Shown: positions 3,861-45,435 of the stretch, one piece after another | Layout of the letters: every line of letters starts with the position of its first letter | Position numbering within the stretch: the stretch's first letter is position 1 | Source of the DNA: Eledone cirrhosa | Taxonomy: Eukaryota | Direction: 5' to 3' | Assembly (NCBI GenBank): GCA_964016885.1 | Contig: OZ024743.1 | Location: forward strand, 343,914,001-343,978,000 | Length of the DNA stretch: 64,000 nt | The notes under the pieces: model-generated | Databases searched by the model: none | What the model was told of the DNA's origin: nothing | The model's input: only the letters and a program-made list of their open reading frames with translations | Translations under genes and position numbers: made by a program

Positions 3861-4162
3861 ATGACGATAGCTAATAAGCTTGAAACTAGTACAGCGTTCC
3901 TTTGTCAGTGTTGAACAAACGAGCAGCGATGGTTGCTAGACACTACGGCTTAATACGGGATGTTTGTTTACAAACACACCGAGCATTATAATAAATGTTC
4001 GGTGAATCCATACGTACATATATATATGTGTGCATGTATGTATATATATATACATACTACTGTACGTCTGTATACATATATGTATGTACGTGTACATACT
4101 TATATTTAAGTAACGGCCGTACTAAGAATGGGAAATGAAATTTCGTTTCATTTTTTCCGTTT
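3861..4162 (+). mobile_element. HHR-bearing PLE/retrozyme-like terminal fragment (family P9)
   Basis: Reverse-complement homologue of 35561-35855. Begins at TGACGA-TAGCTAATAAGCTT-GAAA-CTAGTA; flanked by (TA)n. Confidence 0.7.
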
Positions 4163-4406
4163 ATATATATATATATATTTATATATATATATATATATAT
4201 ATATATATAGTGTGAGAAAGACAAAGAGAGAGAGAGAGAGAGATAGACAGATAGATAGATAGATAGATAGATAGATAGAGAGAGAGAGAGAGAGAGAGAC
4301 ACGAGGGGTAGTGATGATTTGATATAGATAATATAAGTGTGATGAGATTAGGCACGACCATACATGCAATGTCGCTGTATCGATACTCCGTATAAGTAAT
4401 AAATGA

Positions 4407-4626
4407 TTTCTAGTATTGGCACAAGGCTAGTCATTTGGGTGGAGGGGAAAGTCGATTAGATCGATCCCAGTACCTTACTGGTGCTTTATTTTATCGACCC
4501 CGTAAGGATGAAAGGCAAAGTTAACCTCGGCGGGATTTGAACTCAGACCGTAAAGGACCGTAACTCTATGCTTTATGCTACAAAGCATGGTGTCCGACTC
4601 TCTACCGATACTGCCAATCCACCGCA
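4407..4626 (-). mobile_element. SINE family A (tRNA head)
   Basis: Minus strand: TGGCAGTATCGGTAGAG...TCTGAGTTCAAATCCCGCCGAGG...GCCTTTCATCCTTACGGGGTCGATAAAATAAAG; more than 12 copies in the window. Confidence 0.9.
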
Positions 4627-4725
4627 TAAGTAATAATTATGGCTAAACTTTGCAGTTTAAAAGTAACGCGTACATTATCTAGTAAAAGTAATGCATACAT
4701 TATCTAGTAAAAGTAATGCATACAT

Positions 4726-4800
4726 ACGGGGTCGATAAAATAAAGTACCAGTAATGCACTGGGTAATTGCTGGCTTTGTGCCTAAAGTAGAAACAATTAT
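4726..4800 (+). mobile_element. SINE family A 3' fragment, inverted relative to 4407-4626
   Basis: TACGGGGTCGATAAAATAAAGTACCAGTAATGCACTGGGTAATTGCTGG. Confidence 0.85.
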
Positions 4801-4850
4801 CTATATATAACGATCGTTGCAGTCTTTCAGCGCTCAAGGTGAATAAGCAA

Positions 4851-4892
4851 GTCCTGACGATGGCTTTAACTAAAGTTGAAATAAAGGAATAG
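4851..4892 (+). ncRNA. Degenerate hammerhead-like motif in a TA-flanked remnant
   Basis: CTGACGA-T-GGCTTT-AACT-AAAGTT-GAAA; stems I and III are not recoverable. Confidence 0.35.
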
Positions 4893-40903: not shown

Positions 40904-41339
40904 ATGTATGTATGTATGTATGTATGTATGTATGTATGTATGTATGTATGTATGTATGTATGTATGTATGTAGGTAGGTATGTATGTATGTATGTGGTAC
41001 GAAGACCAGAAAGAACATAAATCAGAATAGCAATCGATGCATGGAGAGATGAGGAGTGGGTATATTAATGAGGTAGAGACTCTACCGCGAGCTCGAGCAG
41101 TTTCAGCTTGTTACCTCGTGTGTGATTGTGTGTACACTCTGGCGTTCTTCTACTTATTTTAAAGTGTTGTACCGGCGTGTTTGTTTTCATATTTCATCTT
41201 AATTAAGACACTTCGATATCATTAAATGGGAATTTTAAGCGAAAGAAGCCTAATAAGGTTAGCTTGAAATACCTCAGGCATTAATGTGTGTTTAAGGTTT
41301 AGTAATACGATGACCATCCCGACCTCTTCATCCATATAA

Positions 41340-41830
41340 TATTGATAATGATAATGATGGTGATAATTGAAGTGATATATATGATGACGCTGATGGTATT
41401 AATGTGATGATGATGATGCTGATGATGATGATGAGGAGGAGGCGGAGGAGGCGGAGGTTGATCTTATTAATTATGTATTGATGATGGTGACATTCATGAC
41501 GATGGTGCCAATGAGGATAATGATGATTACGATGATGATGATGACAATGATGACGATGATGATGATGACGATGATGATGATGACAATGATGACGATGATG
41601 ATGACGATGATGATGATGACGATGATAATAAGTGTGATGAGAATGAGCATGACGATGCTGAGGTCGATATTGAGCATATTGATGATGATAACGATGAGGA
41701 TAACACACGAGGTTGATTATGATGATGTTGACGTTGACGTTGATGTTGATGTTCATCATTATGTTGCTAATGACAATGATGATGATGATGATTATGTAGA
41801 TGATGATGATGATGTAAATTATAGTGGTGA
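41340..41830. repeat. (GAT)n-rich degenerate microsatellite
   Basis: Directly visible. Confidence 0.9.
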
Positions 41831-41949
41831 TGTATGCCGCTGACAAGGATTGTGATAATTTATTACACTGGCCAGATGTCACCAGGTTATATGTAGGAGC
41901 TATTGACGACTCACACGATTAGCAGCATTACACTGATATTCTTGTTTAC

Positions 41950-44506
41950 ACCCCCCCCCCCCACACACACATACGCGCAAACATACACACACACACCCAC
42001 ACACACACACACACACACACACACATACGCGCAAACATACACACACACACACCCACCCACACACACACACACACACACACACACACACACACACACACAC
42101 ACACACACACACACACACACACACACACAAACACATACGCGCAAACATACACACACACACACACATACACACACACACACAAACACACACGCACGCAAAC
42201 ACATACACACACACACACACACACACACACACAAACACACACGCACGCAAACACATACACACACACACACGCAAACACATACACATACGCGCAAACATAT
42301 ACACACACATACACACAAACACACGCATGCAAACACATACACATACGCGCAAACATATACACACACATACACACAAACACGCAAACACATACACATACGC
42401 GCAAACATACACACACACACACACACACACACATACACACACAAACACACGCAACCACATATACATACGCGCAAACATATACACACACACACACACACAA
42501 GCACACGCACGCAAACACATACACATACGCGCAAACATATACACACATACGCACACACATACACACACACACGCACGCACGCAAACACATACACATACGC
42601 GCAAACATATATATACACACACACACACACAAACAAACACACGCAAACACATACACATACGCGCAAACATATACACACACACACACACACACACACACAA
42701 ACAAACAAACGCAAACACATACACATACGCGCAAACATATACACACACACACACACACAAACAAACAAACACACGCAAACACATACATATACGCGCAAAC
42801 ATATACACACACACACACACACACACACAAACAAACACATGCAAACACATACACATACGCGCAAACATATACACACACACACATACACAAACACACGCAA
42901 GCATATAAACATACGCACCAACATATATACACACACACGCAAGCACATACACGTACGCGCAAACATATACACACACACGCAAGCACATGCACATACGCGC
43001 AAACATACACACACACACAAACACACGCAAGCACATACACATACGCGCAAACATACACACACACACACACACATACACACACAAACACACGCAAGCATAT
43101 ACACATACGCGCAAACATACACACAAACACAGAAACACACGCACGCACATACACGTACGCGCAAACATATACACACACACACACACACACGCAAGCAAAT
43201 ACACATACGCGCAAACATATACACACACATACAAACACACGCAAGCATATAAACATATGCGCAAACATACACACAGACACACACACTCACGCACGTACAT
43301 ACACGCACGCGCAAACATATATACACACACAAACAACCGTAAACACATACACATACGCGCAAACATACACACACACACACAAACACACGCAAGCACATAC
43401 ACGTACGCGCAAACATATACACACACACACAAACACACGCAAGCACATACACGTACGCGCAAACATACACAAACACACAAACAAGCGCAAGCACATACAC
43501 ACACGCGCAAACATATACACACACCCAAACACACACACACAAACACACGCAAGCACATACACATACGCGCAGACACATACACACACACAAACACATGCAA
43601 GCACATACGCATACGCGCAAACACACACACACACACAAACACACGCAAGCACATACACATACGCGCAAACATACACACACACACACACAAACACACGCAA
43701 GCACATACACATACGCGCAAACATATATACACACATACACATACGCGCAAACATATATACTCACACACACAAACACACACAAGCACATACACATACGCGC
43801 AAACATACACACACACACACAGAAATACACGCAAGCACATACACGTACGCGCAAACATATACACACACACACACACAAACACACGCAATCACATACACAT
43901 ACGCACAAACATATATACACACACACAAACACACGCAAGCACATACACATATGCGCAAACACATATACACACACATACACACACAAACACACGCAAGCAC
44001 ATACAGATACGTGCAAACATACACACACGCACACACACACACACAAACACACGCCCGCACATACACATACACGCAAGCATATACACACCCACACATACAA
44101 ACACACGCAAGCATATACACGTACGCGCAAACATATACACACACACACAAACACACGCAAGCACATACATATACGCGTAAACATATACACACACACAAAC
44201 ACACGCAAGCACATACACATACGCGCAAACATATATACACACACGCAAGCACATACACATACGCGCAAACATATACTCACACAGAAACACCCGCAAGCAC
44301 ATACACATACGCGCAAACATATACACACACAGAAACACACGCAAGTACATACACATACACGCAAACATATATACACACACAAACACATGCAAGCACATAC
44401 AGATACGCGCAAACATACACACACACACACACACAAACACACGCAAGCACACGCACACACGGGCAAACACATAAACATACGCGCAAACATATACACACAC
44501 ACACGT
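41950..44506. repeat. CA-derived minisatellite, ~40-55-bp variable unit with core CATACGCGCAAACAT
   Basis: The core recurs dozens of times, separated by variable (CA)n. Confidence 0.92.
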
Positions 44507-44530
44507 AAACGTCCCCGTATATATATATAT

Positions 44531-45435
44531 ATTTACGGTGTTATTGGGGTATTCTAATAGAGATCCTGGTAAAGATGAGAAAAGCTCGATGCTATCCAGT
44601 TTCCTTGATACAGCATTTTATCCGAAATTGGCTAAGGACTTTCTCAGCTGTTCGAGATTCTGTTTTAGACAGTTAGGCTGCAGGCTGCAGAGCTCATAAA
44701 TTATATACATATCAAAATGTGTGTATATATATATAACGCACATGGTTCCCGAACTTAGCGTGTCGCGCATACTTCCGCCACTAAAAATAGCAGCCGGGTC
44801 TACACGACATTTGAAATAGCTCTACGAATTAACGGAGCCGAATATATCAAAAGCATGTATTGAGTTAGAAACTCAAAATAGTCTCATTACAGTAAATTAG
44901 CTCTAGGAAAAAGATTTTTCCGATCCGTATATAACTGAACAAAAAGGAAAAAGGAAAAACGAACACAGACACATATATATATATATGTGTTCAAATCGTA
45001 ATGGACTATTTCAAATGTCGTGTAGACCAGGCTGCTATTTTTAGTGGCGTAAGTATGTGCGACACGCTAAGTTCGGGAACCATGTGCGTTATATATATAC
45101 ACACATTTTCCAGTTTTCTATTTGACTCTAAATGAGGAGGATACTAATTTCATCACCCACTGATGAGCCTGGAATTTGGTATATCTCTTCGCAAATAATA
45201 TTGCGAAACGGTTCTATCAAAGACCGTCTGGGTGATGGTAGTTACCACAATACTGGTTTGTATTTATTTTTCTTAATTTATTTTTCTTAATTTATTCTTA
45301 AATTGAGTCTAGCAAACCCTATTAGTTAGTATTTTTTTTTTTTTTTTCACCTTAGCGATTTTGGTCCATTACGATTTCAACACATATATATATATGTCTG
45401 TGTTCGTTTTTCCTTTTTGTTCAGTTATATATACA
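44531..45435 (+). mobile_element. PLE-like element (family P10) with interleaved inverted repeats
   Basis: 44715-44819 pairs with 45006-45108, and 44928-45006 pairs with 45364-45433; TA flanks; contains an HHR. Confidence 0.7.
45151..45237 (+). ncRNA. Extended type I hammerhead ribozyme
   Basis: CATCACCCA-CTGATGA-GC...GC-GAAA-CGGT-loop-ACCG-TC-TGGGTGATG: 9-bp stem I, 5-bp stem III, canonical GUC cleavage after 45228. Confidence 0.85.

What the first reader, a model, noticed from the sequence alone, without database searches (positions are those of the whole stretch)
3861..45435. Roughly 9-10 unrelated hammerhead-bearing Penelope-like families packed into (TA)n tracts
Seen: HHR cores (CUGAnGA...GAAA...UH) with pairing stems at 17652, 18788, 19661, 20653, 21034, 21220, 23055, 31802, 32213, 35819, 38313, 38456 and 45151, plus decayed ones at 3861, 4851, 22481, 22744 and 34930. 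Their flanks are mutually unrelated and almost all end in (TA)n. Four distinct GIY-YIG sequences are present. Known: PLE pseudo-LTRs carry minimal type I HHRs with palindromic stem III that act as dimers, and Naiad/Chlamys-type PLEs prefer microsatellites. Inference: TA tracts are a shared landing site, the genome may hold a very large unannotated ribozyme complement, and any intron crossing this region might self-cleave on either strand.
Basis: partly seen in the sequence, partly recalled or inferred. Interest (0 to 1): 0.75.

Follow-up and report, generated by a model that had tools for sequence, protein, structure and literature searches.

The report
Hammerhead-tipped Penelope ends in TA repeats
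The ribozyme-like motifs are real: they sit at the ends of nine families of Penelope-type jumping genes and their likely gene-less passengers, a known kind of element that this probably octopod genome carries an estimated 200,000 or more times, usually ending in TA repeats, while actual RNA cutting is untested.

Summary
Real, but a known kind, and not special to this window. All 13 main sites fit a type I hammerhead. Four of five 'decayed' sites belong to high-copy families; 4851 does not. The 17 supported sites fall into nine families, several as the two arms of one inverted insertion. Only two families carry the ribozyme directly behind a PLE endonuclease: D (Hydra clade) and A (C-terminal endonuclease, about 70 extra residues at the telomerase IFD position). 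Naiad/Chlamys is the wrong clade. A 1.19-Mb genome sample gives about 75 structured hammerheads per Mb (shuffles 4), or 1.5-2.8x10^5 genome-wide. The window is only about twofold enriched (P=0.11). In eight families, copies end at two fixed points, each joined to (TA)n, and 72 of 74 two-armed insertions pair one short with one long end. No in vivo cleavage footprint appears (1 of 316 copies starts at the cleavage site). No host intron was found, and inverted arms are predicted to bury the cores, so intron self-cleavage is unsupported. The scan had already noted this system, its scale and the family A insertion on other DNA of this genome.

The parts
17504..19041 (.). Family A two-armed inverted PLE insertion: minus arm ends at the short 3' end, plus arm at the long end; both ends join (TA)n; 36-bp flank duplication (TSD-like)
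17656..17690 (-). Family A hammerhead (extra G between A9 and G10.1, CUU triplet)
18183..18608 (+). Family A C-terminal GIY-YIG endonuclease with CX4CxxC linker, 5'-truncated
   Evidence: (PF01541 E 1.8e-5)
18792..18826 (+). Family A hammerhead
19451..20849 (.). Second family A two-armed insertion (long + short end), hammerheads at 19665-19699 (-) and 20657-20691 (+), GIY-YIG pieces on both arms
20980..21472 (.). Family B two-armed insertion, hammerheads 21038-21087 (-) and 21224-21273 (+), U10.1.U11.1, palindromic stem III, AUA triplet; no coding sequence found upstream
22405..22600 (.). Family K two-armed insertion holding only the 3' half (GAAA, stem III, GUC site) of a long-stem-II hammerhead; 5' core lost by truncation
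22614..22800 (.). Family H two-armed remnant; plus-strand core at 22744 decayed (GAAA to GACA)
22918..23143 (-). Family C copy; U3-A8 hammerhead at 23061-23090
25339..25674 (+). Old, low-copy GIY-YIG remnant; no hammerhead of its own found
31682..31968 (.). Family C two-armed insertion; U3-A8 hammerhead at 31808-31837 (-); plus arm has lost its core
32118..32832 (-). Family D: 3' end of a Hydra-clade PLE, GIY-YIG 32537-32815 and hammerhead 32220-32249 (U10.1.U11.1)
34477..35121 (+). Family F copy with decayed hammerhead at 34938; its upstream part recurs inverted at 32832-33258
35557..35960 (-). Family E copy, a short unit of about 420-500 bp that forms tandem arrays elsewhere; hammerhead 35825-35855 (C10.1.A11.1 variant, GUU triplet)
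3863..4160 (+). Family E copy truncated at the hammerhead core
37845..38165 (-). Second Hydra-type GIY-YIG remnant (CxxC...N...CxH); no hammerhead seen downstream
38179..38564 (.). Family F two-armed insertion, hammerheads 38322-38371 (-) and 38464-38514 (+)
44714..45435 (.). Family G insertion; hammerhead 45160-45228 (+) with 10-bp stem I, 6-bp stem III and GUC triplet, the best candidate here for cleavage as a monomer
4854..4900 (+). CUGACGA...GAAA site not supported as a hammerhead or a family

Best explanation
The sites are type I hammerhead motifs at the 3' ends of nine high-copy retroelement families, two tied to Penelope-like reverse transcriptase/GIY-YIG genes and seven likely gene-less passengers, which were likely inserted into (TA)n by target-primed reverse transcription. 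Shown: family membership, two fixed 3' ends per family joined to TA, two-armed inverted insertions with one short and one long end, and very high copy number. Inferred: the GIY-YIG nicks both strands of a TA run and each 3'-OH primes cDNA on uncleaved element RNA from one donor, one strand at the proximal and the other at the distal start site. The two 5'-truncated cDNAs are then joined head to head. Families B, F, H and K share a tail hairpin with Hydra family D and are likely copied by a Hydra-clade enzyme. The ribozymes likely act in the element's own RNA cycle (slow, dimer- or protein-assisted processing of tandem transcripts), and most genomic copies are predicted to be silent in host transcripts.
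For: Descriptor hits far above shuffles in the window and in 119 evenly spaced 10-kb stretches (95 hits, 6 of them one satellite and dropped; 89 left; shuffles 3-9). Exact genome counts with reversed-pattern control 0: E 28,622, H 23,133, C 13,092, B 5,419. Family A endonuclease: 36,152 first-look candidates. Covariation in E: 97.8% of cells paired, 5 of 12 pairs with two-sided changes, 0 of 500 shuffles as high, slid controls 21-46%. 100 of 100 listed C copies have U3 together with A8. A sense-strand PLE protein lies upstream of 46 of 57 A and 4 of 4 D copies, and of 0 of 152 B, C, E, F, G, H copies. D meets Hydra motifs and reads like Hydra-1_Obim. TA lies within 250 nt downstream of 76% of 85 hits, against 46% upstream and 27% for random sites in the same loci. 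Two 3' ends per family. Short+long pairing in 57 of 58 (A, B, C, D, F, H) and 15 of 16 classifiable K insertions. Arms are closer to each other than to other copies (B 0.974 vs 0.920, F 0.964 vs 0.901). This matches the two RT start sites, cutting of both strands and use of unprocessed RNA shown for the anole Poseidon element.
Against: No cleavage or expression was tested. Absence of an ORF within 700 nt does not prove that B, C, F, H, K are non-autonomous; they could be long 3' UTRs, and K was not in that test. One F copy abuts the start of a Hydra ORF head to head. Family E fits the short+long rule less cleanly: 6 of 9 with unique anchors, and the first E test gave 44 of 59 short+short because of microsatellite matches. 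G has no clean two-end pattern. The covariation in E rests partly on one divergent subfamily row (L124) and relatedness is not controlled. Families A, E, G lack the tail hairpin and C has only a variant. The A arm-identity effect is weak (0.965 vs 0.953). Many loci were selected by family searches, so end counts are not unbiased.
Confidence: 0.87

Rival explanations
1. The hammerheads are active in host transcripts: an intron crossing this region is cut on either strand, giving the host a large regulatory ribozyme layer.
For: About one structured hammerhead per 13 kb genome-wide. Same-strand, same-family pairs exist in the window (18792 and 20657). Family G can form all three stems as a monomer. 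42-44% of Xenopus retrozymes are intronic (passage).
Against: No host exon recognised within the window or 30-40 kb of flank (weak test). In 3 of 3 two-armed insertions folded, the core is fully paired with its antisense arm. Stem III can form only 1-2 intramolecular pairs in A-F. Minimal PLE hammerheads cleave poorly even as dimers and the anole one needs its protein, with no RNA-seq ends at the site.
Confidence: 0.08
2. The palindromic stem III is kept mainly as an RNA dimerisation signal that hands two sister templates to a dimeric RT-endonuclease, one primed at the short and one at the long start, producing the two-armed insertions.
For: Stem III palindromes are kept in unrelated sequences across families while cores tolerate weak variants (U.U, CUU, GUU). 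72 of 74 insertions have one arm of each end type. The anole protein is predicted to be a dimer and does not need ribozyme catalysis in vitro.
Against: Naiads lack canonical hammerheads yet show the same inverted and tailed structures. Arms come from the same subfamily, as one RNA copied twice would also give. Family A stem III gives no stable self-duplex (+1.4 kcal/mol) yet pairs 18 of 18.
Confidence: 0.12
3. The TA tracts are not landing sites but are made or lengthened by the elements during priming.
For: Short ends fall where the element itself reads TA or ATAT. Families E and G carry internal TA runs. The one clear flank duplication (window 17452-17502) starts and ends at short AT runs, with (TA)41 beyond the long end. 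Hammerhead count correlates with TA-tract count (rho 0.50), which fits either direction.
Against: Both ends of most two-armed insertions carry TA runs (median 17 nt each side) and only 3 of 53 show a non-TA flank duplication, near the control of 10 of 400, as expected if the duplication is hidden inside a pre-existing tract. Hydra (TA)n preference is published.
Confidence: 0.25
4. Chance matches to a short motif in AT-rich, repeat-rich DNA.
For: Site 4851 and six satellite hits in L252 are of this kind. Rfam gave no hammerhead among the 150 of 426 rows shown and only a sub-threshold match for G (22.1 bits against 56.3).
Against: Shuffle and reversed-pattern controls, family structure, covariation and fixed position behind PLE stop codons.
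Confidence: 0.02

Closest known systems
Hydra-clade PLEs, including Hydra-1_Obim of Octopus bimaculoides (Craig et al. 2021, PMC8557442; sections 6, 11, 15, passages, supplement searches and parts 57-58 read)
   Same: Family D and the 38-kb remnant: C-terminal GIY-YIG, CxCX5C linker (seen in D), CxxC and CxH around E and N, hammerhead near the 3' end (D), (TA)n preference, inverted 5'-truncated copy, tail at one end.
   Different: Copy numbers are far higher than the few copies noted for Hydra-1_Obim. The D hammerhead has U10.1.U11.1. Tails here are about 55-140 nt rather than 30-40. The strict short+long pairing was not quantified in the parts read.
Minimal type I hammerheads of metazoan PLEs (Cervera and de la Pena 2014, PMC4209133; parts 1-2 of 4 read)
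   Same: Palindromic short stem III, extra base between 9 and 10.1, U3-A8 covariation, opposite-strand pairs 100-700 bp apart, mostly solitary truncated copies, many families per genome.
   Different: That paper reports about 2,000-9,000 motifs per genome and a highly conserved G10.1-C11.1. Here the estimate is 1.5-2.8x10^5 or more, and about a quarter to a third have U10.1.U11.1 (24 of 89 sample hits; about 120,000 pattern matches above control).
Metazoan non-LTR retrozymes (Cervera and de la Pena 2020, PMC7229834, passages; Li et al. 2026 preprint 10.64898/2026.07.22.740005, part 1 of 5 and passages)
   Same: Family E: non-coding unit of about 420-500 bp with one type I hammerhead, in tandem arrays; probably G too.
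   Different: They end in (TA)n at fixed PLE-like ends and come with inverted arms. Circular RNA is untested. The largest count seen in print was 126,247 motifs in the far larger axolotl genome.
Poseidon element PAc of Anolis (Frangieh et al. 2024, PMC11167929; parts 1-2 of 4 read)
   Same: Two RT start sites defining a tail, both DNA strands cut and extended, unprocessed RNA as template, stem-loop at the start sites.
   Different: PAc prefers ATT, and the two strands showed no difference in start site; here each insertion almost always uses one of each.
Nematis/Neptune C-terminal EN+ PLEs (Craig 2021 Fig. S7, read in supplement parts 57-58)
   Same: Family A has a C-terminal GIY-YIG with a CX2-5CxxC linker that reads most like Nematis, and its RT fold is closest to telomerase.
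   Different: DKS in place of DKG, and 130-133 residues between RT motifs A and B' against about 59-63 counted by eye in Penelope, Neptune and Nematis.

Membership tests
Type I (minimal) hammerhead ribozyme | Core CUGANGA (or U3-A8) ... GAAA ... UH in type I order | tested here: met
   13 of 13 main sites; C copies 100 of 100 U3+A8
Type I (minimal) hammerhead ribozyme | Stems I and II kept by compensatory change | tested here: met
   Family E alignment, 5 of 12 pairs with two-sided changes, 0/500 shuffles; only E tested formally
Type I (minimal) hammerhead ribozyme | Palindromic stem III able to form in a dimer | tested here: met
   Self-duplex -3.2 to -8.3 kcal/mol for B, C, D, E, F; not stable for A (+1.4); G forms 6 bp as a monomer
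Type I (minimal) hammerhead ribozyme | G10.1-C11.1 pair | tested here: not met
   U.U in B, D, E, H; a natural, rarer variant in Perreault 2011, so not disqualifying
Type I (minimal) hammerhead ribozyme | Self-cleavage at the UH site | not testable with these tools
   No RNA holder listed; genomic proxy negative, 1 of 316
Hydra-clade PLE (family D) | C-terminal GIY-YIG with CxCX5C linker, CxxC and CxH around E and N | tested here: met
   L057 frames of family D against Craig section 11
Hydra-clade PLE (family D) | RWK and DKT motifs in the N-terminal RT region | tested here: inconclusive
   Seen in other Hydra-type families of the genome (L070, L061); no N-terminal part of D itself was read
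Hydra-clade PLE (family D) | Hammerhead near the 3' end and (TA)n insertion | tested here: met
   Hammerhead 190 nt after the stop in L057; 8 of 10 copies end at two points followed by TA
Naiad/Chlamys PLE | N-terminal GIY-YIG, no canonical hammerhead | tested here: not met
   A and D have a C-terminal endonuclease followed by a hammerhead
Neptune or Nematis PLE (family A) | C-terminal GIY-YIG with CX2-5CxxC linker | tested here: met
   L101; 72 of 79 homologues with a GIY motif
Neptune or Nematis PLE (family A) | No insertion between RT motifs A and B'; DKG motif | tested here: not met
   Spacing 130-133 in 43 of the 44 homologues (of 105) where both motifs were matched; DKS commonest; references about 59-63
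Neptune or Nematis PLE (family A) | Phylogenetic placement with Repbase members | not tested
   No reference sequences could be obtained
Non-LTR retrozyme (families E, G) | Short non-coding unit with one hammerhead in tandem arrays | tested here: met
   E: arrays of up to 7 units at 422-500 bp, no PLE protein upstream in 29 of 29. G: permuted unit seen by eye, no tandem pair in the loci held
Non-LTR retrozyme (families E, G) | Expressed as linear and circular RNA | not testable with these tools
   No RNA holder listed

The most novel reading that the evidence does not exclude
Every Penelope-type insertion here is one two-template event: a dimeric RT-endonuclease cuts both strands of (TA)n and obligatorily primes one arm at the proximal and the other at the distal start site, on two sister RNAs held together by the hammerhead's palindromic stem III acting as a retrovirus-like dimerisation signal. 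One such enzyme belongs to an unnamed PLE clade with a telomerase-length insertion in the RT fingers.
Probability: 0.12. Interest if true: 0.8.

Novelty: new variant of a known kind. Interest (0 to 1): 0.45.

Why it matters
The element class, the TA preference and the ribozyme variants are published. Three things add value. First, scale: an estimated 1.5-2.8x10^5 structured hammerheads by a strict descriptor, and up to about 3.7x10^5 cores above a reversed-pattern control, exceed the largest single-genome count seen in the papers read (126,247). No such count for a cephalopod turned up in searches. Second, the 72-of-74 short+long rule gives a sharp prediction for the open question of how PLEs form inverted and tailed insertions, testable in the existing in vitro system. 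Third, family A, the source of 4 of the 13 main sites, has a telomerase-length fingers insertion with a C-terminal endonuclease, a combination not found in Craig 2021 or in searches.

Tried and rejected
Rfam scan of the window: no hammerhead among the 150 of 426 rows shown; K gave only hairpin-like hits; G a sub-threshold RAGATH-1 match. Expression: no RNA holder listed; laying three contig runs gave no information on RNA ends. Idea that family K arms begin at a ribozyme cleavage site: rejected, they break inside stem II, 30-60 nt upstream. Filing family A as Neptune: dropped after the motif spacing test. Whether A's insertion folds like the TERT IFD: AlphaFold model of homologue P0004 (mean pLDDT 89.7, insertion blocks 84-97) matches telomerases best (Z 15.4, rmsd 3.5, 355 aligned), but Tribolium TERT, recalled to have little IFD, is tied, and the insertion was not searched alone, so this is inconclusive. 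Sequence search of PDB found nothing. Heterodimers of RNAs from different loci: not supported. Non-TA target-site duplications: 3 of 53, near control. Host gene search by ORF listing and Pfam: nothing convincing. First E pairing test discarded as contaminated by microsatellite matches (redone). Six hits in L252 dropped as a satellite. A partition-function test of the active fold timed out. Lunse et al. 2017 was not held, so whether it already lists these octopod variants is open. Supplements of the 2026 preprint were not seen.

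
Full report
Setting. The window lies at G000:C4:343,914,001-343,978,000 in a 2.996-Gb genome. The best homologue of the family A protein is from Octopus vulgaris (67% identity), so the host is probably an octopod (inference).

Observation. A descriptor for type I hammerheads found 9 of the 13 main sites against 1.12 on average in 100 shuffles. 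The four others pass when one base between A9 and G10.1 is allowed. Self-comparison groups the sites: A (17690-, 18792+, 19699-, 20657+), B (21087-, 21224+), C (23090-, 31837-; core UUGAAAA), D (32249-), E (35855-, truncated 3863+), F (38371-, 38464+, decayed 34938+), G (45160+), H (decayed 22744+) and K (22481, 3' half only). K's full form, with a long stem II, stem III and GUC site, was found in 5 longer copies elsewhere. Site 4851 has no family. Nine families stand, but sites within a family are related, often as two arms of one insertion.

Scale. Exact patterns count E 28,622, H 23,133, C 13,092 and B 5,419 copies, with reversed-pattern controls of 0. Family A has 36,152 first-look endonuclease candidates and G 1,870. 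In 119 evenly spaced 10-kb stretches the strict descriptor gave 95 hits; 6 from one satellite were dropped. The 89 left equal 75 per Mb (bootstrap 54-97) against 4.2 per Mb shuffled, or 1.5-2.8x10^5 genome-wide. This descriptor misses B, D, G and K, so it is a floor. The loose core pattern gave 250,992 forward matches against 77,432 for the like-counted control (the reverse counts list several starts per site, as one search shows), about 350,000 above control on both strands. U3-A8 cores add about 28,000. The U10.1.U11.1 form gave 67,302 against 7,598. The window's 9 strict hits are reached by 11% of resampled 64-kb sets: the genome is unusual, the window is not. Published counts seen were about 2,000-9,000 per genome (PMC4209133) and 126,247 in axolotl (PMC7229834).

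Are they real ribozyme motifs? In family E, 97.8% of cells pair, with two-sided changes at 5 of 12 pairs and 0 of 500 shuffles as high; one divergent row contributes several of these. All 100 listed C copies carry U3 with A8. Unrelated families keep different palindromes in stem III. U3-A8, the 9/10.1 insertion and opposite-strand pairs are described in PMC4209133, and U10.1-U11.1 as a rare natural variant in PMC3088659. Cleavage was not tested.

Which elements? A PLE protein lies upstream in sense in 46 of 57 A and 4 of 4 D copies, and in 0 of 152 copies of B, C, E, F, G, H. D has Hydra motifs and a hammerhead 190 nt after the stop. Hydra-1_Obim of O. bimaculoides is listed with (TA)n preference and its sequence resembles D by eye. 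Family A encodes RT plus a C-terminal GIY-YIG with a CX4CxxC linker. Its motif A to B' spacing is 130-133 residues in 43 of the 44 homologues where both motifs matched, against about 59-63 counted by eye in Penelope, Neptune and Nematis. Craig states that C-terminal EN+ PLEs have no such insertion. A confident model of a homologue matches telomerases best, but likeness of the insertion to the TERT IFD was not resolved. E forms tandem arrays of 420-500-bp units, as retrozymes do.

Ends and mechanism. A (TA)5+ tract lies within 250 nt downstream of 76% of 85 sample hits, against 46% upstream and 27% for random positions in the same loci. Copies end at two fixed points, each followed by TA: for A, 30 and 25 of 66 copies end in the two main bins, 26 and 23 of them followed by TA. 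Two-armed insertions pair a short with a long end in 18/18 A, 10/11 B, 11/11 C, 2/2 D, 11/11 F, 5/5 H and 15/16 classifiable K; about half would be expected if arms chose independently. E gave 6 of 9 with clean anchors; its first test (44 of 59 short+short) was contaminated by microsatellite matches. Arms resemble each other more than other copies, pointing to one donor. A hairpin ACTC...GAGT followed by RC sits a few bases after the short end in B, D, F, H, K, with a variant in C; the pattern occurs in 0.45% of random 120-nt windows. These features fit the anole Poseidon results: both strands cut and extended, two RT starts, unprocessed template, protein-assisted ribozyme (PMC11167929). The step from genomic ends to priming sites is inference.

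Against host-intron cleavage. Only 1 of 316 copies (1 of 109 in the unbiased sample) starts within 3 nt of the cleavage site. Folding B, F and the second A insertion pairs all 7 core bases with the other arm. Stem III can form 1-2 pairs within a monomer in A-F and 6 in G. No host exon was recognised nearby, a weak test without RNA. No RNA run was listed.

Landing site or product? Only 3 of 53 two-armed insertions show a non-TA flank duplication (control 10 of 400), the clearest being window 17452-17502. E and G contain their own TA runs. Pre-existing tracts are likely, but growth during insertion is not excluded.

Prior notes. The scan had reported this system in this and other genomes, with estimates of 200,000-400,000 motifs, and the family A insertion (seen after my own measurement). 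These are unchecked AI notes, not support. Searches found no paper counting cephalopod hammerheads or naming this clade. PMC13282606 on O. vulgaris repeats does not mention ribozymes (passages). Lunse 2017 could not be read; its roughly 150,000 variants across all genomes is recalled, not from a call. PMC6765202 and PMC6155905 were seen as passages only.

Verdict. Observation partly confirmed, interpretation partly supported. Known kind of element; the added value is scale, the short+long rule and family A's insertion. Interest 0.45.

Noticed in passing
window 17504-19041 and 19451-20849; L101, L066, L294: Family A PLE has about 70 extra residues between RT motifs A and B' (telomerase IFD position) with a C-terminal endonuclease and DKS motif; conserved in marine homologues; possibly an unnamed clade.
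   Followed up: partly
window 17452-17502 and 19137-19183: A 36-bp non-TA duplication flanks the first family A insertion, like a long target-site duplication from widely staggered nicks.
   Followed up: partly
window 32832-33258 and 34477-34896: Sequence upstream of the family F hammerhead is fused to the truncated 5' side of the family D endonuclease; in L243 an F copy sits head to head with the start of a Hydra ORF. The link between F and Hydra is unexplained.
   Followed up: partly
window 45626-53357: Two tandem copies (84% identical) of a non-LTR element with APE endonuclease, RT and zf-RVT, plus an upstream ORF at 48033-49811; L1/Tx1-like by recall; separated by (TATC)n.
   Followed up: no
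window 55098-61350: About 6-kb complex satellite with a roughly 40-bp subunit, not examined.
   Followed up: no
window 4400-4625, 6575-6960, 11030-12320, 13970-14160, 22100-22230, 23215-23360, 39180-39390: Many copies of a short interspersed repeat, some in tandem; resembles octopus SINEs by recall.
   Followed up: no
window 62471-62650: Weak fifth GIY-YIG-like remnant (tblastn E 0.001 to the 38-kb Hydra type).
   Followed up: no
G000:C1:1241766-1244284; L059 8630-9683: Another hammerhead family in 311-bp tandem arrays with an inverted arm, retrozyme-like; a 316-bp U3-A8 array lies at C1:6519946-6521556.
   Followed up: no
L303 55-336 (minus), about 20 kb beyond the window end: 94-residue open frame that looks protein-like and could be a host exon; no Pfam match.
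   Followed up: partly
two-armed insertions genome-wide (e.g. window 19507-20849): Each forms a long near-perfect RNA hairpin if transcribed, a possible bulk source of double-stranded substrate for A-to-I editing in cephalopods (speculation).
   Followed up: no
window 38570-39170: Tc1/mariner-like transposase remnant and terminal sequences beside family F.
   Followed up: no
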